Assembly: GCA_023228875.1 (NCBI GenBank) | Contig: JALOAG010000008.1 | Coordinates: 19,163-83,162, forward strand | Length of the DNA: 64,000 nucleotides | Direction of reading: 5' to 3' | DNA from: Bacteroidia bacterium | GTDB taxonomy: Bacteria; Bacteroidota; Bacteroidia; NS11-12g; UBA955 | Part shown: positions 6,740 to 56,472 of the stretch, piece by piece | How the letters are laid out: every line of letters starts with the position of its first letter | How positions within the stretch are numbered: position 1 is the stretch's first letter | Translations under genes and position numbers: made by a program | The notes under the pieces: model-generated | Database searches by the model: none | What the model was told of the DNA's origin: nothing | The model's input: only the letters and a program-made list of their open reading frames with translations

Positions 6740-8125
6740 ATGAAATTTGATGTAGTAGTATTAGGAAGTGGTCCCGGTGGTTATGTGGCAGCAATCAGAG
6801 CTTCACAACTTGGACTTAAGACAGCCATAGTAGAAAGAGCCGAATTGGGCGGAATTTGCTTGAATTGGGGTTGTATCCCAACAAAAGCCTTGTTAAAATC
6901 TGCACAAGTGTTTGAATATATTCATAATGCCAAAGATTTTGGTATTACTGTAAAAGATTCAAAAGAGGATTTTGATGCTGTTATAAAGCGTTCCCGAGGC
7001 GTTGCCGGCACCATGAGTAAAGGAATTGAATTTTTGCTTAAAAAGAATAAAATAACAGTAGTAAACGGTTTTGGTAAGTTAGTTGCAAAAGGTAAATTAG
7101 AGGTTGATAACAATGGTAAGAAAGAGACTGTAGAAGGTACACACATTATTTTAGCAACAGGTGCTCGTTCTAAAGAATTGCCAAATATTAAGATTGATGG
7201 CAAGAAAGTCATTGGATACCGTGAAGCCATGGTGCTTGACAAAAAACCGGAGAGTATGTTAATCATCGGTTCCGGGGCAATCGGAATGGAGTTTGGATAT
7301 TTCTATTCTACTATGGGAACTAAAGTTACTATTGTAGAATTTATGGACAGGGTGATGCCTGTTGAGGATGAGGAAGTATCAAAGGCTATCGAGAAGATAT
7401 ATAAGAAGAATGGCGTTGATATTATGACTTCCAGTGCTGTAGAAAAAGTTGAATCTACTGCCAAAGGTTGTAAAGTGAGTATCAAAACGGCAAAAGGTGT
7501 TGAAACTGTTGAATGTGATATCGTTTTGTCAGCAGCCGGTGTACAAACAAACATTGAAAATATTGGTATAGAAACGCTGGGTGTAAAGACTGAGAAAGGT
7601 AAGGTAATGGTAGATGAGTACTATAGAACAAATGTTGAAGGTGTTTATGCAATTGGAGATATAGTTCCCGGCCAAGCACTTGCCCACGTTGCCTCAGCTG
7701 AAGGTATTATTTGCGTTGAGAAAATCGCAGGTATGAATCCAGAACCTCTTGATTATGGTAACATACCGGGATGTACATACTGCCATCCTGAAGTTGCTTC
7801 AGTTGGGCTAACAGAAGCACAAGCAAAAGAAAAAGGATATGAAATTAAAGTTGGTAAATTCCCATTCTCTGCATCAGGAAAGGCTAATGCAAATGGGAGC
7901 AGAGAAGGATTTGTTAAAGTGATTTTTGATGCTAAATATGGTGAATGGCTTGGTTGTCACATGATTGGCGAAGGTGTTACAGATATGATAGCAGAGGCGG
8001 TTGTAGCTAGGAAACTTGAGACGACAGGACATGAAATTATAAAAGCTGTTCATCCGCACCCTACTATGAGTGAAGCTGTAATGGAAGCAGCGGCACAAGC
8101 TTATGGCGAGTGTATTCACTTGTAA
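6740..8125 (+). CDS. lpdA: dihydrolipoyl dehydrogenase (E3). The start is chosen at MKFDVVVLGSGPGG; the ORF track begins 36 nt upstream.
   Basis: It has the FAD-binding GSGPGGY motif and the redox-active disulfide GGICLNWGCIPTK. Confidence 0.9.
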   Translation: MKFDVVVLGSGPGGYVAAIRASQLGLKTAIVERAELGGICLNWGCIPTKALLKSAQVFEYIHNAKDFGITVKDSKEDFDAVIKRSRGVAGTMSKGIEFLLKKNKITVVNGFGKLVAKGKLEVDNNGKKETVEGTHIILATGARSKELPNIKIDGKKVIGYREAMVLDKKPESMLIIGSGAIGMEFGYFYSTMGTKVTIVEFMDRVMPVEDEEVSKAIEKIYKKNGVDIMTSSAVEKVESTAKGCKVSIKTAKGVETVECDIVLSAAGVQTNIENIGIETLGVKTEKGKVMVDEYYRTNVEGVYAIGDIVPGQALAHVASAEGIICVEKIAGMNPEPLDYGNIPGCTYCHPEVASVGLTEAQAKEKGYEIKVGKFPFSASGKANANGSREGFVKVIFDAKYGEWLGCHMIGEGVTDMIAEAVVARKLETTGHEIIKAVHPHPTMSEAVMEAAAQAYGECIHL

Positions 8126-8144
8126 TAAAGAATAAAAGATAATT

Positions 8145-8175
8145 GGAAAGGGCTGCATTTTGCAGCCCTTTTTTG
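8145..8175. terminator. bidirectional rho-independent terminator between lpdA and recG
   Basis: aaagGGCTGCAtttTGCAGCCCtttttt is a perfect 8-bp stem with an A-run on one side and a T-run on the other. Confidence 0.7.
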
Positions 8176-8194
8176 TTGTCTGTATTGATTGATT

Positions 8195-10306
8195 TTAGGA
8201 TATTTTACTCCAGAAGTTGTCTTTGCTGTGAGCCAATAGATATTTTTTGAGTAAGACATTCTCCGGTTTGCTCAATGTGGGATCTTCTCGCAACACATAA
8301 GAAGCAGCTTGTGAGCCTAAAAATATGATATATTCATCATTTACCAAGTTTAAAAATTTGAAATCAGGTAAACCACTTTGTTTAGTCCCCAAAATATCTC
8401 CGGGACCTCTTTGTTTTAAATCAATTTTTGCAATCTCAAATCCGTCAACGTGTTTCACCATTGCATTCATTCTTTCTTTTGCAGTTTTGCTAATTTCATT
8501 TTCAGTCATTAAAATGCAATAGCTCTGCTCCGCACCTCTGCCCACCCTGCCTCTAAGTTGATGAAGTTGAGAAAGCCCGAATCTGTCAGCATTCTCAATG
8601 ACCATCACACTTGCATTGGGAACGTTAACACCTACTTCAATCACAGTGGTTGCAACCATAATATGTGCAATTCCATTCTTAAAACGCAACATCTCTTTTT
8701 CTTTCTCTTCAGGACGCATTTGCCCGTGAACAATGGATAATCGGTATTCAGGTGTTGGAAAGAAACTTTCAACCATGTCATATCCATCCATTAAGTTTTT
8801 TAAATCTAAAGATTCACTTTCATTGATTAATGGGAATACAAAATATACTTGTCTCCCTTTTGTGATTTCATTTTTTATGAATGACATGAGCGCGATTCTG
8901 TTCTTTTCTTCTTTATGAGCAGTAACTATAGGCTTGCGTCCTGCAGGTAGTTCATCCAAAATACTGTGGTCGGATTCTCCATGTGCCGTCATTGCTAATG
9001 TACGGGGGATTGGCGTTGCTGTCATCACTAACATGTGAGGAGCGGGGTTCGATTTGAGCCAGAGTTTTGCCCTTTGTGCAACTCCAAAACGATGTTGTTC
9101 GTCAATGATAACTAAGCCTAATTTTTGAAAAACGACCCTGTCCTCTAAAATTGCATGTGTGCCGGTTATCAATGAAAGTTTGCCGGAGGCTAAGTCTTCG
9201 AGAATCAAATCGCGTTCTTTGGCAGGAGTGGAGCCGGTGAGCAGTGCTACTCGCAAGCCAAGCGGTGTTGCCCATTCTTGTAATGATTCATAATGTTGTT
9301 GGCAAAGTATTTCTGTTGGTGCAATCAGACAAGTCTGAAACCCATTGTCAATTGCCAAAAGAATTGAGATAAAGGCAATAATTGTTTTTCCGCTTCCTAC
9401 ATCGCCTTGCAACAATCGATTCATTTGTGAGCCATTTTTCATATCCGCCCATATTTCTTTAATTACTCTTTTTTGAGCTTCGGTTAATGAAAAGGGTAGG
9501 TGTTTACTATAAAATAAATTGAAAAAATAGCCCGGCTTGGTGATTTTTGGTCCAATTGAATTAGATATTCTTGTCAATCGGGTTCTTTCGCTGCGCAATT
9601 TGAAAAGAAATATTTCTTCGAATTTAAAACGTTCATTGGCTTTGCTTGCTTGGTCTAATTTGGTTGGGAAATGGATGTCAGCATAAGCTTTTGCGCGTAA
9701 TGGGAATCCTGTTTTTTCAAGAATGCGTGCAGGTAGAAATTCAGGCATATCAAAGTTTACATGCTCTAATGCCGTTTTTGTTAATTCTGCTATAAACTTT
9801 GAATCTATTTTAGATGCTTTGAGTTTTTCAGTTAGAGGGTAAACCGGAATGTATCCCAACACTTCTTGCTGTTTTGCAGGATCATAAATTTGAAGTTCAG
9901 GATGTGAAATTGAAAAGACAGTTTTGAACTCACTGACTCTGCCAAATGCTGTATAGAACTGACCCACTGTGATTGTTTTTTTTACCCAAGGAATTGAGCG
10001 AAACCAAACAAGTTCCATGCAGCCGGTGTCATCACAAAATACAGCTTTGAGTCTTTGAGTATTACGCACTCCTAAAACTTCAATTGATTCAATTTTTCCA
10101 CGCACTTGCACTTGTCCTGAATTGGGTTGAAGCTCTGCAATATTGATGTTGGCAGTCTTGTCAAGATACCGAATCGGAGTATGATTGAGTAAATCACCAA
10201 TAGTGAGGATTCCCAATTCATTCTCAAGAAGTTTCAGGCGTGCATTACTAAAATTTCCGAGCGCACTAATACCTAATTTTTCAAATTCCGACAAGTCAGA
10301 TTTCAC
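8195..10306 (-). CDS. recG: ATP-dependent DNA helicase RecG
   Basis: It has the Walker A motif GDVGSGKT, the DEQHRFG helicase motif II, and the N-terminal wedge-domain layout. Confidence 0.9.
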   Translation of the reverse strand: MKSDLSEFEKLGISALGNFSNARLKLLENELGILTIGDLLNHTPIRYLDKTANINIAELQPNSGQVQVRGKIESIEVLGVRNTQRLKAVFCDDTGCMELVWFRSIPWVKKTITVGQFYTAFGRVSEFKTVFSISHPELQIYDPAKQQEVLGYIPVYPLTEKLKASKIDSKFIAELTKTALEHVNFDMPEFLPARILEKTGFPLRAKAYADIHFPTKLDQASKANERFKFEEIFLFKLRSERTRLTRISNSIGPKITKPGYFFNLFYSKHLPFSLTEAQKRVIKEIWADMKNGSQMNRLLQGDVGSGKTIIAFISILLAIDNGFQTCLIAPTEILCQQHYESLQEWATPLGLRVALLTGSTPAKERDLILEDLASGKLSLITGTHAILEDRVVFQKLGLVIIDEQHRFGVAQRAKLWLKSNPAPHMLVMTATPIPRTLAMTAHGESDHSILDELPAGRKPIVTAHKEEKNRIALMSFIKNEITKGRQVYFVFPLINESESLDLKNLMDGYDMVESFFPTPEYRLSIVHGQMRPEEKEKEMLRFKNGIAHIMVATTVIEVGVNVPNASVMVIENADRFGLSQLHQLRGRVGRGAEQSYCILMTENEISKTAKERMNAMVKHVDGFEIAKIDLKQRGPGDILGTKQSGLPDFKFLNLVNDEYIIFLGSQAASYVLREDPTLSKPENVLLKKYLLAHSKDNFWSKIS

Positions 10307-45776: not shown

Positions 45777-45928
45777 ATTAAAGGGACAAAATGTGCAAAC
45801 AAAAATAGAGGTCTAAACTTCCAAAACCGCTATAGAAAAGTTTTTTTTATAGAGAAGTAATCAACAGCGAAATTGGATAAGTTGTCAGCAATTACTATTC
45901 ATTTGATTCCGTACCCTATAGAAAACAA

Positions 45929-45965
45929 AAAAGGTTGTTCCGTACGGAACAACCTTTTTGTATAA
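45929..45965. terminator. rho-independent terminator downstream of the OMP gene on the minus strand
   Basis: aaaaaaGGTTGTTCCGtaCGGAACAACCtttttg is a 10-bp perfect stem. Confidence 0.7.
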
Positions 45966-46852: not shown

Positions 46853-49800
46853 GTTGTGATTTGCTTACAGTTCTTATCTTTGATGTGGTCATAAACAATG
46901 AACAAAGCCCTATACCGGCACGAACACAAGTTGTGATTTGCTTACAGTTCTTATCTTTGATGTGGTCATAAACAATATTTAAAAACAAAAGAAGACAGAG
47001 ACGTAGTTGTGATTTGCTTACAGTTCTTATCTTTGATGTGGTCATAAACAATAATGGGATACATGGAGAAGTACAGACATAATGAAAGAAGCCCTCAAAA
47101 AGAAGGCTCCTTAGTTCCTTACATTGCGAAGTCTATAAGATTAAGCAGTCCAGAACAACTGCAAATATACAACAATAATTTAAACCTAAGAATAAAAACT
47201 AAAAATTAGAAGATATGGCACAAGGCGGATTAGAATATGTAATAGACCTGATAGACGGTTCTTTTGGCAAGAACATTCAGAAGGCGCAGCAGCAGACAAG
47301 TAAGCTGGACGGCTTGGTTAAGCGCGTGGGGGCTGGCGTTGCAGCTGTGTTTACTGTGCAAAAAGTGTGGGGATTGGTGGAAGAGAGCACCAAAGTGCGG
47401 GCAGAGATGGAAGCTCTGGACACCAAGATTAAAATAGTGAGTGGTTCGACAGAACAATACACCCGCTACACTCAAGCGTTGGGTAGCATGATTGACAACC
47501 TTGCACTGCCTATCAAAGAGACAACAGAGTTGTGATTTGCTTACAGTTCTTATCTTTGATGTGGTCATAAACAATTGCCTGCTGAATAGGCTTCTTGGTA
47601 TGCATTGTTGTGATTTGCTTACAGTTCTTATCTTTGATGTGGTCATAAACAATGACAAAAACCGTTACAATCCGAATCAATTTGTTGTGATTTGCTTACA
47701 GTTCTTATCTTTGATGTGGTCATAAACAATTAGACTGTTGGTCTTTTCGTTCAAATACCTGTTGTGATTTGCTTACAGTTCTTATCTTTGATGTGGTCAT
47801 AAACAATTTCTTACAACGTACTTGTATGGTCTTACCCGTTGTGATTTGCTTACAGTTCTTATCTTTGATGTGGTCATAAACAATCCGAATACAACAGGTG
47901 GAAAATAATGGGTAGTTGTGATTTGCTTACAGTTCTTATCTTTGATGTGGTCATAAACAATGACAAGGGCAACGATAGTGAGCAGCCAATAGTTGTGATT
48001 TGCTTACAGTTCTTATCTTTGATGTGGTCATAAACAATCAACTTTTCTTCCTCAACTCGTTTTCTTCTGTTGTGATTTGCTTACAGTTCTTATCTTTGAT
48101 GTGGTCATAAACAATAAAAGTAAATGTCTTTGACTTTGTTGGGTAGTTGTGATTTGCTTACAGTTCTTATCTTTGATGTGGTCATAAACAATGTTGGCGA
48201 AGGGTAGGTCTGTGTCTGTTTCGTTGTGATTTGCTTACAGTTCTTATCTTTGATGTGGTCATAAACAATCTTATTGTTCTCATTATAAGCATTCTCAGGT
48301 TGTGATTTGCTTACAGTTCTTATCTTTGATGTGGTCATAAACAATTAGATAGTTACTTGATTGCATTATTCCAAAGTTGTGATTTGCTTACAGTTCTTAT
48401 CTTTGATGTGGTCATAAACAATTTTAAGGCTCTGGATGTGCCTAATGTGGAGTGTTGTGATTTGCTTACAGTTCTTATCTTTGATGTGGTCATAAACAAT
48501 AAATTGCCCTGCGTTTGCATCAATCTGCTTGTTGTGATTTGCTTACAGTTCTTATCTTTGATGTGGTCATAAACAATTGCTCAACTATTAGGTGGTAATG
48601 TATGCTAGTTGTGATTTGCTTACAGTTCTTATCTTTGATGTGGTCATAAACAATACAGGTTCTAGTTCCTTAAAGGTGTACAAAGTTGTGATTTGCTTAC
48701 AGTTCTTATCTTTGATGTGGTCATAAACAATTTGCTTACTTTGACATGTAGTAATTGTCCAGTTGTGATTTGCTTACAGTTCTTATCTTTGATGTGGTCA
48801 TAAACAATTCTCAATCTTATTCTAAATTTTACTCTTTGGTTGTGATTTGCTTACAGTTCTTATCTTTGATGTGGTCATAAACAATAAGTCATCTATTTAT
48901 ATACACTTGTATAGCGTTGTGATTTGCTTACAGTTCTTATCTTTGATGTGGTCATAAACAATTTTTCAATTACAAATCATTAATAAGTGCATGTTGTGAT
49001 TTGCTTACAGTTCTTATCTTTGATGTGGTCATAAACAATAGGGCATCCAGCTTCAATCATTCGCTTTACGTTGTGATTTGCTTACAGTTCTTATCTTTGA
49101 TGTGGTCATAAACAATGCCGGCAAATGAGTATAACGGCAAAACAGAGTTGTGATTTGCTTACAGTTCTTATCTTTGATGTGGTCATAAACAATTGCCAAC
49201 ATTCCAACGGCTGCCAACCTTTCGTTGTGATTTGCTTACAGTTCTTATCTTTGATGTGGTCATAAACAATTGTAAGAGTGGCAAGCACTACAGTTGAAGC
49301 GTTGTGATTTGCTTACAGTTCTTATCTTTGATGTGGTCATAAACAATAGATAGGTCGTCGCCCCCTTTTCGTTTTTAGTTGTGATTTGCTTACAGTTCTT
49401 ATCTTTGATGTGGTCATAAACAATGTCTCTCTCGTAGTTAAAATCGTCAGGGAGGTTGTGATTTGCTTACAGTTCTTATCTTTGATGTGGTCATAAACAA
49501 TTTAACTCTCTTTTGAAAAACGCAGTAGGGGGTTGTGATTTGCTTACAGTTCTTATCTTTGATGTGGTCATAAACAATGATTTTGCAGTAGAGAATTTAG
49601 AGAAACAAGTTGTGATTTGCTTACAGTTCTTATCTTTGATGTGGTCATAAACAATTATATTTGAGTAGCTTATTGACGGGTTTAGTTGTGATTTGCTTAC
49701 AGTTCTTATCTTTGATGTGGTCATAAACAATTAGCAGACGGAAATGGGAAAATAGTAATGAGTTGTGATTTGCTTACAGTTCTTATCTTTGATGTGGTCA

Positions 49801-49885
49801 TAAACAATCTTCTAAAGAATTTCCTATTTGTTTTATGTGTTGTGATTTGCTTACAGTTCTTATCTTTGATGTGGTCATAAACAAT
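46853..49885 (+). CRISPR. type II-C CRISPR array of 34 identical 47-bp direct repeats (GTTGTGATTTGCTTACAGTTCTTATCTTTGATGTGGTCATAAACAAT). It has 32 spacers of 29-31 bp plus one 476-bp insert in a spacer position. crRNA orientation is '+', as written.
   Basis: I enumerated every repeat by hand; starts are at 46853, 46930, 47006, 47529, 47607, 47684 ... 49839. Every copy looks identical. Orientation follows from the 19-nt complementarity between the repeat 5' end and the tracrRNA anti-repeat on the same strand. Confidence 0.97.
47053..47528 (+). other. 476-bp foreign insert in a spacer position (a 'mega-spacer'). It holds a phage-like intergenic region plus a 5'-truncated tail-tape-measure-like ORF; ATG is at 47215 and the ORF runs into the next repeat.
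   Basis: Intact repeats flank it precisely on both sides. The ORF 47215-47535 (MAQGGLEYVIDLIDGSFGKNIQKAQQ...) has no stop until the TGA inside repeat 4. Its N-terminus resembles tape-measure N-termini (lambda gpH-like MA..G.L.V.DL...F). Confidence 0.75.
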
Positions 49886-49956
49886 ATACCCTACTTGTAT
49901 CTATTGATAGTTCAAGGATGTCGTGGGATATGACACAAAGAAAAAAATGAAATGAC

Positions 49957-49990
49957 CAAGGAGGATTTATTTAGTAAATCCTCCTTTTTT

Positions 49991-49992
<2 letters not shown>
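49957..49992. terminator. bidirectional terminator between the array end and the cas2 3' end
   Basis: aaGGAGGATTTAtttagTAAATCCTCCttttttttt sits 1 nt beyond the cas2 stop on the minus strand and ~70 nt past the last repeat on the plus strand. Confidence 0.7.
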
Positions 49993-50341
<349 letters not shown>

Positions 50342-50350
50342 TCATACTTT

Positions 50351-51292
50351 TCAGAGGTTCATGGCTGGATAGGGGATTTTGTTTGCTTTGCCCTCAAAAC
50401 ATTTCACTAAACCGGCTGTGGTTCTTTGCAACGCAACCATTAAGGGGCTTTTGTTATTATCAATTTCAACATCTATTGCTGGTATGATTAACAACTCTTT
50501 CTTGATTTCTGTGGTTAATTCACCTTCAGTTTTTGGGAACTTGTGTAAAAGTCCACAAATCAGTTCATCCACAAATGGGCGATAAGGTTCCATAATATCA
50601 TCTGCCAGACAATATGAGTTGTATTGATTGCGATGATGAATCCCCAATGTTGGCAAGAGTCCGCTTCCAACCAATGAACGTGCCACGCAAGCACGTAAGA
50701 TAGAGTAGCCATAGTTCAGCCAAGTATTCGGTTTGTTGCCTTCGCGATCTCGAATGAAATTTGACTCGACTCCGAAAATATGTTGCCAATAGTAGGCTGC
50801 CGCCCTGCCTTCAAAGTTTTCAGGGTCTCCACTACGTACTTGTTTTGCCATGTTATACAGCATTTGTGCATCCCCTTGCCTTTGTTTTTCGAGCAAGATT
50901 CCTTGATTGTTTATTTTTTGTTTGACGGTTTGTTGCCATAGTTGTTTCTTTAGCGGAAGCGAGCTTTCAATCTGTGCCATAAAACGTTTTGCTTGCAGCG
51001 TGTTTCCGTCTAAATTAAGCATCATGCCGCATGGGTGGTGGGTTGAGTTACAGGTAATTAATGCCACATTGTTTTCTAATAGTTCACTCATCAGTGCTTG
51101 TGTCAATGTGATACGACTATGGTCTAAAATTAATAATCCGATGTCTTCAATGGGAATTGAAGCAATCGCTTCTTTTTTAACCTGCTCCGGCATATTCGCG
51201 TCTTGTTCAATCTCAGGCAGTTTTACAACCAATTGTTTAAGATTCAGACTTAAATAAGCCGGATTACCAAAATAGAGCGTGCGTTTAATCAT
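50351..51292 (-). CDS. cas1: CRISPR-associated integrase Cas1 (type II)
   Basis: It is 313 aa and begins MIKRTLYFGNPAYLSL...; operon context supports the call. Confidence 0.9.
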   Translation of the reverse strand: MIKRTLYFGNPAYLSLNLKQLVVKLPEIEQDANMPEQVKKEAIASIPIEDIGLLILDHSRITLTQALMSELLENNVALITCNSTHHPCGMMLNLDGNTLQAKRFMAQIESSLPLKKQLWQQTVKQKINNQGILLEKQRQGDAQMLYNMAKQVRSGDPENFEGRAAAYYWQHIFGVESNFIRDREGNKPNTWLNYGYSILRACVARSLVGSGLLPTLGIHHRNQYNSYCLADDIMEPYRPFVDELICGLLHKFPKTEGELTTEIKKELLIIPAIDVEIDNNKSPLMVALQRTTAGLVKCFEGKANKIPYPAMNL

Positions 51293-51295
51293 AGG

Positions 51296-52018
51296 CTAAA
51301 GAGTTAATTCATTTTCAATTTGCACGTATTCTTCAAACTGCTTTTCTTTTAGCGAGTGCTGTTCTTTATAGTTTTCCATGTTGTTAAACAAATGCTCAGC
51401 TAATTCGGTGTTACGGCTGTAAAAGCCGGTGTTGTTCGTCCATTCCCAATCGTTTATATCAGTAGTGAAATTGTGTTTTATCGGGTTGAGGTGAATATAG
51501 AGAATAATTGCTCGGAGGTAGTCATCGTCTTTGATTTCCTTCCGTTTGAAATTTTTAAGAAAAAGAGAACCGCGTCTTTGATAAACCTTATTAAAGGATT
51601 GGGTGTAACTGCTAAACAGATTAGCAAATTGTTTGCTGAGAAACTTTCCATCAATGGTTGGGATGGGGTTAGACTTTTCAACTGGTTTAAACTTTTCCAA
51701 AGTTCTAAACTTTGGAAAAGTTTGGAGTTGGTTAGGGAAGGTTGAGTTTGACGAAGTTTCCTCTATATTTGGTATATCGTTACTAAGCAGTACCTCTACT
51801 TCCCCTTTTAAAATCTTTTTAATTTCCTCCTTGCTTCTGATTTTGACTAAAAAATGAAAATGATTAGGCATCAGACACCAAGTCAGGGTCTCGGCTATGG
51901 GGCTGATATGCCGATTCCATTTGCTCAAGAAAAACAGATGGTTCTTTCTCTCAACAAATAGATTATCCGTTCCGTTTGCATGGTTGAAAATGTGGTAGTA
52001 TGTCTCAAAATTAAGCAT
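51296..52018 (-). CDS. HUH-superfamily Y1 transposase-family protein (IS200/IS605 TnpA or RayT-like, COG1943/PF01797-like), embedded in the cas operon
   Basis: It has an N-terminal YYHIFNHANG, the HuH motif PNHFHFLVK, and the C-terminal catalytic-Tyr region YQRRG...DDDYLRAIILYIHLNPIKHN, which matches the W-QRR...DExDY...Y-I-H-x-N-P-V-K pattern of RayT/IS200-like proteins. It is 46 nt after the cas9 stop and 3 nt before the cas1 start, on the same strand. Confidence 0.8.
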   Translation of the reverse strand: MLNFETYYHIFNHANGTDNLFVERKNHLFFLSKWNRHISPIAETLTWCLMPNHFHFLVKIRSKEEIKKILKGEVEVLLSNDIPNIEETSSNSTFPNQLQTFPKFRTLEKFKPVEKSNPIPTIDGKFLSKQFANLFSSYTQSFNKVYQRRGSLFLKNFKRKEIKDDDYLRAIILYIHLNPIKHNFTTDINDWEWTNNTGFYSRNTELAEHLFNNMENYKEQHSLKEKQFEEYVQIENELTL

Positions 52019-52064: not shown

Positions 52065-55000
52065 TTAATATTCTCCAATACTTACAATATCGCCCAAATG
52101 ATTGATGCGTACTTTGACAATCCCTTCAAAATTGGGTAAACTTTTAATATTTTTGAAAGTGATGTCTTTTAGTTCTTTCCTATCATCTATTGTTGTTTCT
52201 AAATGATGCCTAAAAACATATTCTCTCACAGCTGAATTGCCATAAATAAGTTTTGAAAATTTCTGCACCCTAAACAAATTTTGACTGATTTCCTTTTTAT
52301 TTTTCGGGTCTAACAAATCAATTTCATTGGGGTTAAATCCTGTTTTTTCATTTGGGAAAACAAACATTTCATTTTGTTTCAAGGTAAATAGAAACTGCCA
52401 GCCTAAATGTTGGTTATATGTTTTATCAATTATTGGTAATCCTTGATTAGAGCGAGCAACAGCTTCATAGAACGAAACCACATTTTCTTGTAAATTTCCT
52501 TTCTCATCTCTGTAAACTGCTACGTGGTGATTGTTTCCAGTGCTAACATAATCAACAGGAATTTTCATCCCATTTTCATCCAACATAAAATTACCAAAAT
52601 GGTCTTTTTTGTAGTGCAAAGGTTCAGCATTGCTAACACCGCTAATTGTAACACGTTTTATTGAAATTCCCTTTTCTTTATTGAGCCAAATCGGGTTTTT
52701 GTCTAAATCAGAAAATGCTTTTTTGGGATCTCCTCCGTATTCTTTTAAGCGATTTCTCATTATCGTTTTAATTCCCTCATCAACAATTTTACCTATTAAT
52801 TTATCATCTTTAAAATTTTCCGGGGTAATATCTTTTCTAATTGAAAAATCTTCTGTCAGCCATACTAGTTTTACAATTTCAGGAAGTGCTTTTGATTTTG
52901 CTTCATCCAAGTAAATCGGATTTTTGCTCAAAGCATTTTTTCCTGCAAAAACTTTCATCGGGTCATTGCCATTTTCTGATAATCTTTGTAATAAAAACTT
53001 TCTATAAAGAGGGTTAGCCACTTTATTTATGGTTTCAACGTCAAATTTTGTGCTTACTTTTTCTTCTTTACTTTCGTAATAATGGTATTTACCGTAAACA
53101 GTTTCTTTGTGCAACTGTCCTCTTGGAGTTAACGTTTCTTGAGCTTTGTCTTTGCCCGAAATTTTATTTTTATTTTTCGTAACTACCTTATTTTTTGCTT
53201 TATGCGAAATCAATACATTTTCCAAATGCTCTTTGGCTACCTGACGGAAGTTTGGTATTGGTTCTTTAAAAACACGCTTTTTGTTTCCGTCATTATCCAC
53301 TTTTATTTCGGTTTCCAAATTCTCAATGGCAACTATATTGCTGTGCAATTTATGATTTTCGTTTTTCCGTGCATTCAGGTAATTCAAATACTGAATATGA
53401 TTATGTTTGGTAAATGCAACCGTCAAAGCGTCCATAGCGTGATGACGGTGGTCGTTCCGTTTTGTCCAGTCTTTAATAACTTCTACTTGCTTTCCAAATT
53501 TCCGTTCTTGCATTTCAGTCAACCCTAAACTTCTGTATTTCGGCAGATTAAGCTCTTTCATTACATTAACCAAGTCCCAATCTTCACGAAGTCTGTCTGT
53601 AATACTTCCCGAAGTGGAAACTACTGAACGGGTAATTTTAAACAGCATTTCTTTTGCCTTTTTGGCAATGTATTGCGTTTCTCTTAAATCACGCTCTATA
53701 AATCCGTCCCCGATTTCAGACTCTTTTTTGAATAATTTTTGATATTTAGCTTTTGAAATCTTCTTTTCCATGTACAAAATTTCGACTACTGATTCATACT
53801 TAGAAAAATCACCTTCGCCTTTTGTGCTCATATAATCAAATGCTGTCTTGTTTCCCTTATCCAAATTTGCTTGTCTCGGTACTAAAACTTTATTTGAAAA
53901 ACTGTCATCAAACAAACGGGATTGAGGAATGATATGGTCTATATCATATTCTTTTCCAAATAACTTATGATAATCAATTTTGGTATTTGTATATAAATCT
54001 TTATAAGCATTAAAGGCTAATTCCTCATATAGTTTATATCTTATAATATCATTTTTTGTTGGATTCTGAACACTTGGAAAATCTCTCTTTATGATCGCTC
54101 TTATTTTATCATTCTCCAATTTTGCAGCATTGATATTCGTAGTCATTTCTGCTCTTTCCTGTGCATTTTTCTTTAATTCACGAGCCAATTCTATACGGAT
54201 TTCGTCAAATCGGAAATCGGGATTTCCTTTTCTATTTTTCTCAATCAATGTGTTTACCACATTGACCATTTGATTAAGAATTTTCTCCACCACAGGTTGA
54301 CGTAAACTGTTCTTTTTCAACAACTCCAATTTATCCTCCAATGGTCTATTGTCTATTTCCTCTTTGGTCAAAGAATGCTTGGAATGACGATAACCTGCCA
54401 ATTCGCAAGCCGTACTATAATTGTTTTCCTTAATAAACGGATAAACTTTTCGCATCGCTTTGGAAGAAAGATTTCCGTAATCATCAGATAAGGAAATATT
54501 AGCCAAAATCTGACTATGTTCTTTTTTGAAGCCGAATTTCTTTTCTAACAGTTCATACAATTTTTCGTTTCCACTTTGGGAATTATCGCCTTCATACGAA
54601 TACAATAAATGCCACAATTGATAAGATAGCTGTTCTTCAAACGCTGTTCCGTCCAGCTCTGCATCAAATTCCAAAATCTTCGTATCAATTTCCAATGTCT
54701 GAAAAATATCCCTGACCATCTTCTTGATTTCAATGGCAGGAACATTCAAATCGTCCAGTTCAACCTCATCTTTGTTGGATTTTACTTTCAGTAAATCTTT
54801 TACGTCATACCCCTCTATATCCAAAATTTTCAGATAGGCTTCATAAAGTGCTTTATTGGTTCGATTGCCCTCCAATTCAGAATAATTGATTTCCCAATCA
54901 GTAGGTTTGTACCCTAATAGTTCAATGATTTTATTGGCTTTTAAATTGCCTTTAAAGTTCAATTCATCAAACAAATGTTGCTTTGTTTCTAAATCGAGCG

Positions 55001-56342
55001 TAAATATTTCCTTTTCTTCTTCAAAAAGACTATCCTGATTGTCTTGTTTTGCTGTACGTTTCTTACTTCCTTTTTTTCGGATTAAAATATTGTTCAAGTT
55101 TTGCCAAATCTTAAACTCCTGAAATAAAGGCGAAGATTTTGGTGCAACACGCAAGCCAATTGTTTTTTTCTTTCCGTTTAATTCAACTTCCTTACTCTCA
55201 AATTCGCAAAAGCTGATTAAGCCTTTTTGAGATTTCAGTTTTCTTTGGTAAAAGATGATGATGTCCCGAATTTCTGTTTTGAGTTCTTCTGTTAATTCTG
55301 AATGATAGTTAGATTGAACTTCCCAAATTTTCTCAAACTCGTCCAAATAATCCTGACGATAAAACACTTGATTTTTCAATCGTGTATGACGGTTTTCCTT
55401 GATTTGCTGATACAAATATTGACCGACCGTCTGCTTGCTAAAATACAACTCCTTACTTCGATCTGAAATTGCACCAAGATAACCGCTCGAATTATTAAGG
55501 TTGTTGTTTATCTCTGTCAGAACAAAAGCGACCTCATCTTTTTCCAATTGTTTGGAAATTGCTTCACTTCGCCATTTGTAAGCCTGTATCTTTTTTTCTT
55601 CTCTTGTTCCTTTGTTTTCGGCTGTATTGAATTGATATTTTGTCCAAAACAAAGTGGAAGTTGCTCGTTGTCCTTTTCCTTTTAATTCTTTATAAAATTC
55701 ATCGGTAAGGATTTCAGGATAGAATTGTCTTTGAAAATCCCACACTTTGTCAAATTCAGCCTGCAAATCCGACCTGTAAAAATCAGGTATTGACTTTTTG
55801 CCTTCTTTCAAAAGCTGATAAACCAACTGGCCGGGCGTTATCTGTTCATCATACAACCGTTTCGCAACAGCCATTCCATCAATCGCCTGACCTTCATCTT
55901 CGTTCTTAGCTTTTCTACTGCTTTTATAACCTCGTTTTTTATTGATAGCTAAAAAAACACGTGCCAATTCATCTTTATCAATTTTCTCATAAGCGGCTTT
56001 TGATCGTAACATCCAAGTTGAAAAAGTGGTTTGTTTGCCATCTTCATTTAAAATAGAATTATTGTTAATGATATTAGCATTAACCAGTGCTTCAATTAAA
56101 TTTTTACGTCTGATTTTAAAACGGTCTAAATTTCTTCTAGCTCCACGTTTTAAGGTTCTTTCTTTATTAATCGAAAAAGATTTGCCTTTTTCAAAATTGG
56201 TTTGTTCATCTACAGTTAGTGAAATAATTCTAACACCTATTTGATTAATTTCAGAGTTTTTTAGTTTTTCATCTTCCAAGATGTGTGCAAAACCTATTGA
56301 GGATACTCCTAAATCCAGTCCAAGTATATTTTTTTTTGCCAT
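52065..56342 (-). CDS. cas9: Cas9 endonuclease, long Bacteroidota-type, type II-C (1425 aa)
   Basis: It has RuvC-I (ILGLDLGVSSIGFA), HNH (YDIDHIIPQSRLFDDSFSNKVLV) and RuvC-III (HHAMDALTVAF). No csn2 or cas4 is in the locus. Confidence 0.95.
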   Translation of the reverse strand: MAKKNILGLDLGVSSIGFAHILEDEKLKNSEINQIGVRIISLTVDEQTNFEKGKSFSINKERTLKRGARRNLDRFKIRRKNLIEALVNANIINNNSILNEDGKQTTFSTWMLRSKAAYEKIDKDELARVFLAINKKRGYKSSRKAKNEDEGQAIDGMAVAKRLYDEQITPGQLVYQLLKEGKKSIPDFYRSDLQAEFDKVWDFQRQFYPEILTDEFYKELKGKGQRATSTLFWTKYQFNTAENKGTREEKKIQAYKWRSEAISKQLEKDEVAFVLTEINNNLNNSSGYLGAISDRSKELYFSKQTVGQYLYQQIKENRHTRLKNQVFYRQDYLDEFEKIWEVQSNYHSELTEELKTEIRDIIIFYQRKLKSQKGLISFCEFESKEVELNGKKKTIGLRVAPKSSPLFQEFKIWQNLNNILIRKKGSKKRTAKQDNQDSLFEEEKEIFTLDLETKQHLFDELNFKGNLKANKIIELLGYKPTDWEINYSELEGNRTNKALYEAYLKILDIEGYDVKDLLKVKSNKDEVELDDLNVPAIEIKKMVRDIFQTLEIDTKILEFDAELDGTAFEEQLSYQLWHLLYSYEGDNSQSGNEKLYELLEKKFGFKKEHSQILANISLSDDYGNLSSKAMRKVYPFIKENNYSTACELAGYRHSKHSLTKEEIDNRPLEDKLELLKKNSLRQPVVEKILNQMVNVVNTLIEKNRKGNPDFRFDEIRIELARELKKNAQERAEMTTNINAAKLENDKIRAIIKRDFPSVQNPTKNDIIRYKLYEELAFNAYKDLYTNTKIDYHKLFGKEYDIDHIIPQSRLFDDSFSNKVLVPRQANLDKGNKTAFDYMSTKGEGDFSKYESVVEILYMEKKISKAKYQKLFKKESEIGDGFIERDLRETQYIAKKAKEMLFKITRSVVSTSGSITDRLREDWDLVNVMKELNLPKYRSLGLTEMQERKFGKQVEVIKDWTKRNDHRHHAMDALTVAFTKHNHIQYLNYLNARKNENHKLHSNIVAIENLETEIKVDNDGNKKRVFKEPIPNFRQVAKEHLENVLISHKAKNKVVTKNKNKISGKDKAQETLTPRGQLHKETVYGKYHYYESKEEKVSTKFDVETINKVANPLYRKFLLQRLSENGNDPMKVFAGKNALSKNPIYLDEAKSKALPEIVKLVWLTEDFSIRKDITPENFKDDKLIGKIVDEGIKTIMRNRLKEYGGDPKKAFSDLDKNPIWLNKEKGISIKRVTISGVSNAEPLHYKKDHFGNFMLDENGMKIPVDYVSTGNNHHVAVYRDEKGNLQENVVSFYEAVARSNQGLPIIDKTYNQHLGWQFLFTLKQNEMFVFPNEKTGFNPNEIDLLDPKNKKEISQNLFRVQKFSKLIYGNSAVREYVFRHHLETTIDDRKELKDITFKNIKSLPNFEGIVKVRINHLGDIVSIGEY

Positions 56343-56396: not shown

Positions 56397-56400
56397 CAAC

Positions 56401-56472
56401 ACTGTAAGCAAATCACAATAAGGATTATTTCCGTTGTGAAAACATTTAAGGCGGGGTAACTCGCCTTTTTTT
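56401..56472 (+). ncRNA. tracrRNA. The anti-repeat ACUGUAAGCAAAUCACAAU is followed by a stem-loop region and an intrinsic terminator (GGCGGGguaaCUCGCC-U7).
   Basis: Positions 56401-56419 are the reverse complement of repeat nt 1-18(19), with a G-U at the end. The terminator is at 56449-56472. It lies in the 197-nt gap upstream of cas9 and is transcribed divergently. Confidence 0.85.

What the first reader, a model, noticed from the sequence alone, without database searches (positions are those of the whole stretch)
47053..47528. 476-bp 'mega-spacer': phage intergenic region plus the first 104 codons of a tape-measure-like gene inserted precisely between two CRISPR repeats
Seen in sequence: between repeat 3 (ends 47052) and repeat 4 (starts 47529) there are 476 bp where a 29-31-bp spacer belongs. 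Both flanking repeats are intact and there are no partial repeats. The insert carries an AT-rich upstream region, then ATG at 47215 opening an ORF (MAQGGLEYVIDLIDGSFGKNIQKAQQQTSKLDGL...) that reads straight into repeat 4. It is therefore a 5' gene fragment, not a gene.

Established knowledge: Cas1-Cas2 normally integrate ~30-bp prespacers with ruler-like precision. Tape-measure N-termini often begin like MA..G.L.V.DL...F.

Inference: three explanations are possible. One is aberrant integration of an untrimmed long prespacer. Another is recombination between this array and a repeat-bearing mobile element or phage. The third is recombination between a spacer and its phage protospacer. Each is a rarely documented event. 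The boundaries sit exactly at the repeat edges, and that pattern argues for Cas1-Cas2-type integration chemistry.
Basis: partly seen in the sequence, partly recalled or inferred. Interest (0 to 1): 0.8.

Follow-up and report, generated by a model that had tools for sequence, protein, structure and literature searches.

The report
Phage gene fragment as giant CRISPR spacer
A 476-base piece of a Mu-like phage sits exactly where a 30-base spacer belongs in a type II-C CRISPR array. A second, unrelated array holds a longer piece of the same phage region, so this looks like a rare, recurring way for CRISPR arrays to take up long DNA.

Summary
There are 34 perfect 47-nt repeats at 46853-49885. Every spacer is 29-31 nt except 47053-47528, which is 476 nt, sits flush against intact repeats on both sides, and contains no partial repeat.

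The insert is a colinear fragment of an uncultured Mu-like phage. It carries the last ~20 codons of a MuF minor-capsid gene, the intergenic region, and codons 1-104 of a 520-640-aa tape-measure (TMP_3) gene. MuF followed by TMP is the native gene order in related phages (L002-L006).

Another genome (L001) has a 1481-bp fragment of the same phage region between repeats of a related II-C array. That fragment is 86-88% identical to prophage L002 but only 63% identical to the window's insert, so the two captures were independent. Their right ends are only 27 nt apart in homologous coordinates; their left ends are about 1 kb apart.

The tracrRNA position and published II-C work place both inserts near the oldest end of their arrays, not the newest.

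The mechanism is unresolved. I favour Cas1-Cas2 integration of an untrimmed prespacer (about 0.45) over double recombination between spacers and their protospacers (about 0.3). Recombination with a repeat-bearing phage, transposon insertion and misassembly are unlikely.

The parts
46853..49885 (+). Type II-C CRISPR array: 34 identical 47-nt repeats and 33 spacers. The + strand is the crRNA sense, transcribed towards cas2.
   Evidence: The sense follows from the tracrRNA anti-repeat.
46853..47052 (+). Three repeats and two ordinary spacers (30 and 29 nt) on the cas-distal (oldest) side of the insert.
   Evidence: Polarity is taken from PMC6008519 and PMC12080349.
47006..47052 (+). Repeat 3: intact and flush with the left end of the insert.
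47053..47528 (+). The 476-bp insert ('mega-spacer'), a colinear fragment of a Mu-like phage.
47055..47114 (+). Remnant of the last ~19 codons and the TAG stop of the upstream MuF-like minor-capsid gene. A degenerate terminator-like hairpin lies at about 47090-47108. This sub-part is the least certain.
   Evidence: Alignment to the L001 insert; reading frame and hairpin comparison with L001-L003. MuF C-termini vary between phages, so the homology here is weak.
47115..47214 (+). Phage MuF-TMP intergenic region. It contains the motif ACTGCAAATATACAACAATAA (about 47157-47178), conserved upstream of the TMP start in L001, L002, L003 and L007.
47215..47528 (+). Codons 1-104 (plus 2 nt) of a tape-measure (TMP_3-family) gene. 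The ORF ends at a TGA inside repeat 4 (ORF 47215-47535).
47529..47575 (+). Repeat 4: intact and flush with the right end of the insert. It would give a crRNA whose guide is the last 20-24 nt of the insert.
   Evidence: The crRNA is an inference.
49886..49990 (+). Presumed leader between the last repeat and cas2. It includes a hairpin plus T-run (about 49959-49992) that would terminate array transcripts.
   Evidence: Sequence; leader position by analogy with R. anatipestifer.
49991..50335 (-). cas2
   Evidence: PF09827; TIGR01573.
50351..51292 (-). cas1 (type II, cas1_NMENI)
52065..56342 (-). cas9 (1425 aa)
   Evidence: HNH and RuvC_III domains; TIGR01865, 465 bits.
56398..56472 (+). Putative tracrRNA: anti-repeat at 56401-56418 (18/18 complementary to repeat positions 2-19), a TAtaTTTG -7 box just upstream, and a terminator hairpin plus T-run.

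Best explanation
What it is (near certain): a real 476-bp fragment of an uncultured Mu-like phage of Bacteroidota. It comprises the MuF 3' end, the intergenic region and TMP codons 1-104. It occupies one spacer position near the old end of a type II-C array and is flanked by two intact repeats.

How it got there (inferred, about 0.45): the adaptation integrase Cas1-Cas2 inserted an over-long prespacer by its normal chemistry. Two transesterifications at the two borders of one repeat were followed by gap filling, which duplicated the repeat.

The end that lies where every normal spacer has its PAM-proximal end (the right end, next to the downstream repeat) was chosen at a favoured site in the phage TMP gene. 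The distal end was not measured or trimmed. That would explain why the two independent inserts share a right end to within 27 nt but differ by about 1 kb on the left.

At the time, the target repeat was next to the leader on the cas2 side. About 30 later acquisitions pushed the insert towards the old end.

Today (inferred): the per-repeat promoter would transcribe the insert in the sense direction. Repeat 4 can still give a crRNA guided by the last 20-24 nt of the insert. A 106-aa TMP stub could be translated; its effect is unknown.
For: The feature is real: 34 perfect repeats and one 476-nt spacer with no partial repeat inside.

Phage origin: the only close homologue of the ORF is in L001. 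The profile search finds 67 proteins, mostly 520-640 aa, all matching through their residues 1-113. L002 and L003 carry Portal_Mu, Phage_Mu_F, a 544-554-aa TMP_3 protein and Phage_tail_S in that order. The L002 TMP passes TIGR02675. Insert GC is 43% against 37% for the window.

Integrase-like anatomy: there are four flush junctions (two in the window, two in L001) with complete repeats on both sides. None shows microhomology to the phage continuation, terminal inverted repeats, or any target duplication other than the repeat itself.

Independent recurrence: the L001 insert (1481 bp) is 85.8-88.5% identical to prophage L002. The window insert is 63% identical to L001 and 68.6% to L002. dN/dS is 0.14 for L001 vs L002. 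For window vs L001, synonymous sites are saturated (pN 0.22, pS 0.91). Most of the divergence therefore happened in working phage genes, not inside arrays.

Asymmetry: the right ends fall at TMP codon 104 and codon 113, 27 nt apart. The chance of that is about 0.0014 on a ~38-kb genome. The left ends fall at -162 and -1142 relative to the ATG.

Machinery and polarity: cas1 and cas2 are intact next to the array. The tracrRNA fixes the crRNA sense. II-C acquisition at the cas2-proximal repeat is from the literature.
Against: No PAM is known for this Cas9, and the true donor phage was not found. The key prediction, a PAM immediately after the right end in the donor, is therefore untested.

Proxy sequences after the two right ends (TGCYTTTGG for the window; ACACAAGGAAG for L001, read from L002) do not resemble each other or the R. 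anatipestifer PAM.

From general knowledge, Cas1-Cas2 complexes measure prespacers with a ruler, and full-site integration of 0.5-1.5-kb DNA in vivo has not been documented.

In L001, repeats 3 and 4, just left of the insert, share a SNP that is absent from repeats 1, 2 and 5 onwards. Simple sequential leader-end acquisition does not produce that pattern.

Both inserts lie 3-4 units from the old end. This model treats that as coincidence or survivorship.
Confidence: 0.45

Rival explanations
1. Spacer-guided homologous recombination. The array once held two ordinary spacers against this phage, one matching the tail of MuF and one matching TMP codons ~95-104. A double crossover, or an integration followed by a deletion, between those spacers and their protospacers replaced the intervening repeat(s) with the phage DNA lying between them. 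The junctions are flush because the outer edges of the two old spacers never moved.
For: This predicts flush junctions, intact flanking repeats and colinearity with the phage, exactly as seen. Recombination between spacers and phage targets is documented in staphylococci (Varble et al. 2019, as cited in PMC8616872). It allows insertion anywhere in the array, so the old-end position and the L001 repeat-SNP pattern are not a problem. Durable spacers against a conserved TMP segment in different hosts could explain the shared right end.
Against: It needs two pre-existing spacers in the right order and orientation, plus recombination on only ~30 bp at each side, and all of this twice independently. 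No other spacer of either array matches the phage family. No allele with the two parental spacers was found; the only other copy of the locus, L012, has its array collapsed to one repeat. It does not by itself explain why only the right ends coincide.
Confidence: 0.3
2. Retained because it is useful. However the fragment entered, it persists at the conserved old end because the phage promoter region plus an N-terminal TMP stub of ~105-113 aa, or the long homology to the phage, benefits the host. The stub might act as a dominant-negative tail-assembly poison or a phage-responsive transcription unit. This adds to an entry mechanism rather than replacing one.
For: The two flush fragments keep the TMP start codon, its upstream region and an intact ORF ending at codon 104 or 113. 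A looser third case (L007/L008) ends somewhere between codons ~94 and ~110. dN/dS is low. The insert lies in the sense direction downstream of a repeat that carries a Bacteroidetes-type -7 box, TAtcTTTG (compare the tracrRNA promoter).
Against: Low dN/dS and intact ORFs are equally expected from recent independent capture. The cut lies inside the Pfam TMP_3 region, which starts at about residue 56, and before the tape_meas_nterm domain (residues 140-206 in L002), so it is not at a recognised domain boundary. The repeat-encoded C-terminal tails differ between the cases. In L007 the fragment is antisense to the crRNA direction and not flush with a repeat.
Confidence: 0.1
3. Recombination with a repeat-bearing phage or element (a solitary repeat unit or mini-array), or prophage integration into a repeat followed by decay to a remnant.
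For: Phages that integrate into CRISPR repeats and phages that carry repeat mimics are known (bioRxiv 10.1101/2020.10.09.333658; PMC10651486; PMC8616872). A 27-nt repeat-like element lies in a MuF-encoding phage-like region, L093.
Against: L002, 86-88% identical to the L001 insert, and L003 read through both junction positions as uninterrupted coding sequence. They contain no repeat-like sequence in 18-21 kb. Single-site integration followed by deletion would leave a permuted remnant, not a colinear one. There is no integrase and no att-like duplication other than whole repeats.
Confidence: 0.06
4. A single ancient insertion inherited by both arrays, so the two events are not independent.
For: The same phage region, the same orientation, a position near the old end in both arrays, and related repeats (38/47 identical).
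Against: The boundaries differ on both sides yet are flush in both arrays. The L001 insert is much closer to a free prophage (86-88%) than to the window insert (63%). Synonymous sites between the two inserts are saturated while both ORFs stay intact. The flanking host genes differ.
Confidence: 0.05
5. Assembly artefact: a chimeric join of array and phage reads.
For: The contig is a short-read metagenome assembly (MEGAHIT k141 naming). Arrays are often mis-assembled; L012 collapses this array to a single repeat.
Against: A chimera needs sequence shared between phage and array. The insert has none and neither do related phages. Both junctions fall exactly at repeat borders. The same architecture appears in an independent assembly of another organism.
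Confidence: 0.03

Closest known systems
Canonical Cas1-Cas2 spacer acquisition in type II-C systems (R. anatipestifer, C. jejuni, N. meningitidis)
   Same: 47-nt repeats, with cas9-cas1-cas2 and a tracrRNA upstream of cas9. The new DNA sits between two complete copies of the repeat, comes from a phage, and lies in the same register as the other spacers.
   Different: The length is 476 bp (1481 bp in L001) instead of 30 +/- 1. The PAM is untested. The insert is now at the old end of the array.
Spacer-protospacer recombination between phages and CRISPR loci (Varble et al. 2019, staphylococci)
   Same: Phage DNA becomes joined to an array through the spacer sequence, which would give flush junctions.
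   Different: That work describes whole-phage cointegrates that promote transduction. It does not describe a stable sub-kb colinear fragment bounded by two different former spacers, and no parental spacers are seen here.
Casposons (Cas1-solo integrases)
   Same: A Cas1-family integrase inserts kb-scale DNA and duplicates the target site. The repeat duplication here is formally equivalent.
   Different: Casposons carry their own cas1, a polymerase and terminal inverted repeats. This insert has none of these and is a random piece of a phage.
'Long spacers' (>=100 nt) catalogued in E. coli, P. aeruginosa and S. thermophilus arrays (Kupczok et al. 2015, PMC4524480)
   Same: Similar rarity. Here about 1 flush case in roughly 1200 spacers of this repeat family.
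   Different: Most of the catalogued ones are transposons or IS elements. This one has no transposase, no inverted repeats and no short target duplication.
Prophage integration into CRISPR repeats (S. pyogenes phage AP1.1) and Tn7-like elements that target repeats
   Same: Large foreign DNA flanked by CRISPR repeats.
   Different: Those are complete elements with their own recombinase that use the repeat as an attachment site. Here the DNA is an internal fragment of two structural genes.
Phage-borne solitary repeat units, mini-arrays and RNA anti-CRISPRs (Racrs)
   Same: CRISPR repeats and phage DNA are physically linked. A possible repeat mimic was seen in L093.
   Different: In those cases the repeats are in the phage. 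Here the phage DNA is in a chromosomal, cas-adjacent array, and the related phages lack repeats at these positions.

Membership tests
Type II-C CRISPR-Cas locus | cas9, cas1 and cas2 present, with no csn2 or cas4 | tested here: met
   TIGR01865 Cas9, cas1_NMENI and TIGR01573 Cas2. The only extra ORF between cas9 and cas1 is a RAYT-like protein scoring below its cutoff.
Type II-C CRISPR-Cas locus | tracrRNA with an anti-repeat complementary to the repeat | tested here: met
   18/18 complementarity at 56401-56418, followed by a terminator. No Rfam model matched.
Type II-C CRISPR-Cas locus | Array transcribed towards cas2 from promoters inside the repeats, with acquisition at the cas2-proximal repeat | tested here: inconclusive
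   The direction follows from the tracrRNA. A TAtcTTTG -7-like box lies in each repeat. Acquisition polarity is taken from the literature only.
CRISPR spacer | Lies between two intact direct repeats, in register with the array | tested here: met
CRISPR spacer | Length set by the integrase ruler (29-31 nt in this array) | tested here: not met
   476 nt against 29-31 nt for the other 32 spacers.
CRISPR spacer | Derived from a mobile element | tested here: met
   Homologous and syntenic to Mu-like phages L002-L006.
CRISPR spacer | Protospacer flanked by the system's PAM in the donor | not testable with these tools
   No protospacer was found for any spacer and no close donor for the insert.
Tape-measure protein gene (Pfam TMP_3 / TIGR02675) | Homology to full-length tape-measure proteins | tested here: met
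   The profile matches residues 1-113 of 67 proteins, mostly 520-640 aa. The L002 and L003 homologues carry PF20155, and L002 passes TIGR02675.
Tape-measure protein gene (Pfam TMP_3 / TIGR02675) | The fragment itself passes the curated family threshold | tested here: not met
   PF20155 scores 16.4 bits against a cutoff of 41. The PHROG TMP hit is E 2e-5. This is expected for a 104-residue stub that ends before the signature domain.
Mu-like phage (donor) | Mu-type head module and Mu-specific genes | tested here: met
   Portal_Mu, Phage_Mu_F, Phage_Mu_Gp36, DUF3164 and, in L009, Phage_Mu_Gam. A transposase was not seen in the stretches retrieved, so transposable replication is not shown.
IS element or transposon insertion | Transposase, terminal inverted repeats, a short target duplication, and an interrupted repeat or spacer | tested here: not met
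   None of these is present. Compare L103, where an element does split a repeat.
Prophage integrated at a CRISPR repeat | A complete element with an integrase, with its attachment site equal to the repeat | tested here: not met
   The insert is 476 bp with no integrase. Related phages have no repeat-like site.

The most novel reading that the evidence does not exclude
Type II-C adaptation machinery can occasionally act like a casposase. It would insert 0.5-1.5-kb stretches of phage DNA whose PAM-side end is picked at a break-prone or otherwise favoured site, here in the TMP gene near the middle of one Mu-like phage contig. Phage Mu itself has a strong gyrase cleavage site at its genome centre. 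Such mega-spacers would then persist at the conserved end of arrays, perhaps because they still make a crRNA and also express a phage promoter plus a truncated tail protein. That would be a second, protein-level or transcription-level layer of memory stored inside a CRISPR array.
Probability: 0.12. Interest if true: 0.85.

Novelty: new variant of a known kind. Interest (0 to 1): 0.62.

Why it matters
CRISPR adaptation is thought to be strictly length-gauged. Long 'spacers' in catalogues are usually written off as transposons.

Here there are two independent, flush, colinear phage fragments, from the same locus of one phage family, in two related II-C arrays. This points to a reproducible route by which arrays take up hundreds of bases of invader DNA.

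If the route is integrase-mediated, it ties CRISPR integrases functionally to their casposon ancestors in living cells, and it exposes a step (distal-end trimming or measuring) that can fail. If the route is spacer-guided recombination, it shows that a process seen in the laboratory leaves stable scars in nature.

Either way, the insert gives the array several hundred bases of homology to the phage, which could promote further recombination between phage and CRISPR locus, and possibly transduction. The near-identical right ends mark a hot spot on these phage genomes that can be tested directly.

Tried and rejected
- **Donor search.** blastn of the insert and of the whole array against 50,697 phage records gave nothing significant, and tblastn of the stub gave nothing. 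Protein-pattern scans of IMG/VR, GTDB genomes and JGI metagenomes found no relative. The family was reached only through the protein databases.
- **PAM.** Exact scans of viral contigs with spacers 9 and 26 gave no hit. None of the window's spacers, the L001 spacers or 1184 spacers from 75 related arrays matches the Mu-like phages above chance. The PAM remains unknown.
- **Self-targeting or local duplication.** No copy of the insert or of any spacer exists elsewhere in the 64-kb window.
- **Array alleles.** The only other copy of the locus (L012) has the array collapsed to one repeat, so it says nothing about the insert.
- **Shared flanks.** The identity AACAGA|repeat|TGCC at 47523-47579 and 49141-49197 does not extend into either spacer. 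I treat it as chance.
- **Microhomology at the junctions.** None was consistent across the four junctions.
- **L007/L008 as a third flush case.** Rejected: the fragment is antisense to the crRNA, 125-185 nt from a degenerate repeat, and the break point is uncertain.
- **Profile search for more fragments.** The wider N-terminal profile (A5) returned only the three fragments already known.
- **Central gyrase site as the hot spot.** This is only an analogy. In the 30.9-kb contig behind L003 the site lies at about 13.7 kb, but the phage ends are not defined.
Full report
**1. The observation**

The 47-nt repeat GTTGTGATTTGCTTACAGTTCTTATCTTTGATGTGGTCATAAACAAT occurs 34 times without a single mismatch between 46853 and 49885 on the + strand. 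Thirty-two spacers are 29-31 nt. The third from the left, 47053-47528, is 476 nt. Both neighbouring repeats are complete. The best local alignment between the insert and the repeat, on either strand, is no better than for shuffled sequence. An ORF opens at ATG 47215 and stops at a TGA inside repeat 4.

**2. The locus and its polarity**

To the right of the array, on the minus strand, lie:
- cas2 (49991-50335)
- cas1 (50351-51292; type II cas1_NMENI)
- a 240-aa RAYT-like ORF
- cas9 (52065-56342)

There is no csn2 or cas4, so this is a type II-C locus.

Upstream of cas9, on the + strand, an 18-nt anti-repeat (56401-56418) is perfectly complementary to repeat positions 2-19. It is preceded by TAtaTTTG and followed by a hairpin and a T-run, which makes it a putative tracrRNA. 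This fixes the + strand as the crRNA sense, so the array is transcribed towards cas2.

Each repeat contains TAtcTTTG, which fits the Bacteroidetes -7 promoter consensus (from general knowledge). A promoter in every repeat, as in other II-C systems, is therefore plausible.

In R. anatipestifer, which also has 47-bp repeats and a tracrRNA upstream of cas9, new spacers enter between cas2 and the adjacent repeat (PMC6008519). PMC12080349 states the same rule for II-C in general. By that rule the mega-spacer is the third-oldest unit of 33, not a recent acquisition.

**3. What the insert is**

The ORF product has weak tape-measure hits on its own: PHROG 9959 at E 2e-5, and PF20155 below its cutoff. 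A profile search of 1.8 billion representative proteins found 67 relatives, nearly all 520-640 aa. The query aligned to their residues 1-113.

Through the neighbouring gene in L001 I reached full phage contexts. In L002 (a prophage at the end of a 776-kb Bacteroidota contig) and in L003-L006, the gene order is terminase, Portal_Mu, Phage_Mu_F, a 544-554-aa TMP_3 protein, Phage_tail_S. Mu-type genes are nearby (Mu_Gp36, DUF3164; Mu Gam in L009). The L002 protein passes the curated tape-measure model at residues 140-206, just beyond the truncation point.

MuF followed by TMP is therefore the native order. The 162 nt upstream of the ATG in the window are the native intergenic region. They include a motif conserved in all relatives, preceded by what looks like the last ~19 codons and the terminator hairpin of the MuF gene. 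That last sub-part is weak, because MuF C-termini vary between phages.

No cultured phage matches. Insert GC is 43% against 37% for the window.

**4. A second, independent case**

The only close homologue of the ORF (66% identity) lies in L001, a contig from another MAG. There it is again between two repeats of a related II-C array (38/47 identical positions). The L001 insert is 1481 bp (6824-8304) and sits after the fourth repeat from the same cas-distal end. It starts 240 nt inside the MuF gene and ends after TMP codon 113.

This insert is 88.5% and 85.8% identical to prophage L002 in its two conserved blocks. The middle block differs because the MuF C-terminal toxin-like domain has been swapped. 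The window insert is only 63% identical to L001 and 68.6% to L002.

Between the window and L001 copies, synonymous sites are saturated (pS 0.91) while pN is 0.22. Between L001 and L002, dN/dS is 0.14. The divergence therefore arose in functional phage genes, and the two arrays captured their fragments separately from different members of one phage family. A single ancestral insertion is not tenable.

**5. Junction anatomy and the hot spot**

All four junctions are flush with complete repeats. The phage relatives read through the junction positions as normal coding sequence and have no repeat-like sequence in 18-21 kb. There is no consistent microhomology.

The two right ends are 27 nt apart in homologous coordinates (codons 104 and 113). 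The left ends are about 980 nt apart. For two random fragments of a ~38-kb genome, right ends this close have a probability of about 0.0014.

A third TMP 5' fragment (L007/L008) breaks somewhere between codons ~94 and ~110. It lies 125-185 nt from a degenerate II-C-type repeat next to another array. However, it is antisense to the crRNA and not flush, so I count it only as a hint.

**6. How common is this?**

The long inserts among them were:
- One further flush long insert: L031, 1058 bp between two near-identical repeats. It holds a DUF5053 gene and a 5' gene fragment cut by a repeat, with no cas genes nearby.
- One transposon-like insertion that splits a repeat: L103.
- Several arrays whose old end is separated from a degenerate repeat or mini-array by 0.1-0.9 kb: L091, L110, L127.

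This rarity matches the published rate of 'long spacers', most of which are transposons (PMC4524480). The window's insert is not one. It has no transposase, no inverted repeats and no short target duplication.

**7. Mechanism**

Two models predict flush junctions with whole repeats on both sides.

(a) Cas1-Cas2 integration of an over-long prespacer. The repeat duplication is the integrase's own signature.

(b) Double recombination between two ordinary spacers and their protospacers, as known from staphylococci.

I favour (a) at about 0.45 against about 0.3 for (b), for two reasons:
- Asymmetry. The shared end is the one that occupies the PAM-proximal position of every normal spacer, while the other end is free. 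That is what a failure of distal measuring or trimming would produce.
- Parsimony. Model (b) needs two correctly ordered spacers and two 30-bp crossovers, twice independently, and no parental or additional spacers against these phages are seen.

Against (a):
- No precedent for kb-scale full-site integration in vivo (general knowledge).
- The PAM is unknown.
- The proxy sequences after the two right ends do not match each other.
- The L001 repeat-SNP pattern (repeats 3 and 4 differ from all the others) points to an ectopic event or gene conversion next to the insert.

Why this spot on the phage is favoured is unexplained. Candidates are a preferred PAM in a conserved segment, a Cas9 cut site, or a break-prone site. 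Phage Mu has a strong gyrase cleavage site at its genome centre (PMC10052514), and in the L003 contig the spot lies near the middle. That is analogy only.

Three other explanations are unlikely: recombination with a repeat-bearing phage, prophage integration followed by decay, and misassembly.

**8. Present-day consequences (inferred)**

Transcription from repeat 3 would run through the insert in the sense direction. Repeat 4, together with the tracrRNA, could still yield a crRNA guided by the last 20-24 nt of the insert. A 106-aa TMP stub could be made. The insert also gives related phages 476 bp of homology to the array. None of this was testable here.

**9. Verdict**

The finding is real and its phage origin is established. 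The independent recurrence with a shared end was not expected. It is a new variant of known CRISPR-phage DNA transactions, not a new kind of system. The mechanism remains open and can be tested directly.

Noticed in passing
window 51296-52018 (-): A 240-aa ORF lies between cas9 and cas1. It resembles REP-associated tyrosine transposases (NF047646, 55.6 bits, below the cutoff of 80; weak Pfam Y1_Tnp hit). It is conserved in the second copy of the locus, L012. This is an unusual passenger inside a II-C cas operon.
   Followed up: partly
window 47523-47579 and 49141-49197: The sequence AACAGA + repeat + TGCC is identical at the mega-spacer/spacer-4 junction and at the spacer-24/spacer-25 junction, giving 10 flanking nt in common. 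The identity does not extend further. It is probably chance, at a rough p of 0.005.
   Followed up: partly
L001 6700-6823: Repeats 3 and 4, the two just left of the L001 insert, share a C-to-A change (GACATAATCAT) that is absent from repeats 1, 2 and 5 onwards. This fits an ectopic acquisition at a mutated internal repeat, or local gene conversion, but not simple leader-end growth.
   Followed up: no
L001 6838-7872: The MuF fragment inside the L001 insert carries a C-terminal domain different from that of L002. The related protein P0005 hits PF18451 (CdiA_C). This looks like the 'MuF polymorphic toxin' arrangement, so a toxin-domain gene fragment sits inside a CRISPR array.
   Followed up: partly
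L007 267-1123 (= L008): A third TMP 5' fragment (125-aa ORF; homology ends at about residues 94-106). It is preceded by three tandem 101-bp copies of the phage terminator-plus-upstream-motif region, and followed 125 nt later by a degenerate II-C-type repeat. A 103-aa ORF and a II-C array follow. It is antisense to the crRNA direction, and the architecture is unexplained.
   Followed up: partly
L031 633-1784: Two near-identical 47-nt II-C-type repeats flank 1058 bp that hold a DUF5053 gene and a coiled-coil gene 5' fragment cut by the left repeat. There are no other repeats or cas genes within 8 kb (Tangfeifania MAG). It may be another mega-spacer in an orphan mini-array.
   Followed up: partly
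L093 6664-6690 (-): A 27-nt element, GTTGTGATTTGCTTTCAAAAGAGTATC, matches the tracrRNA-pairing half of II-C repeats. It lies directly after a gene in a phage-like region that encodes portal and MuF proteins. It could be a solitary repeat unit or RNA anti-CRISPR, or a chance match. No tRNA was found next to it.
   Followed up: partly
L012 5780-5840: The same cas9-cas1-cas2 and outer-membrane-protein flanks occur in another sequencing run (SRR34875121), with the array reduced to a single repeat. This is either an assembler collapse or an array-less allele.
   Followed up: no
L091, L110, L127 (oriented coordinates): Several related II-C arrays have a degenerate repeat or a 2-repeat mini-array at the crRNA-5' (old) end, separated from the main array by 120-930 nt of non-CRISPR DNA. 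Together with the window and L001, this suggests that the old end of these arrays is where odd insertions survive.
   Followed up: no
window 45838-45959 (+): A sub-threshold Rfam match to Bacteroides sRNA BTnc231 (34 bits against a gathering score of 80; E 6e-4) lies between dnaE and the outer-membrane-protein gene.
   Followed up: no
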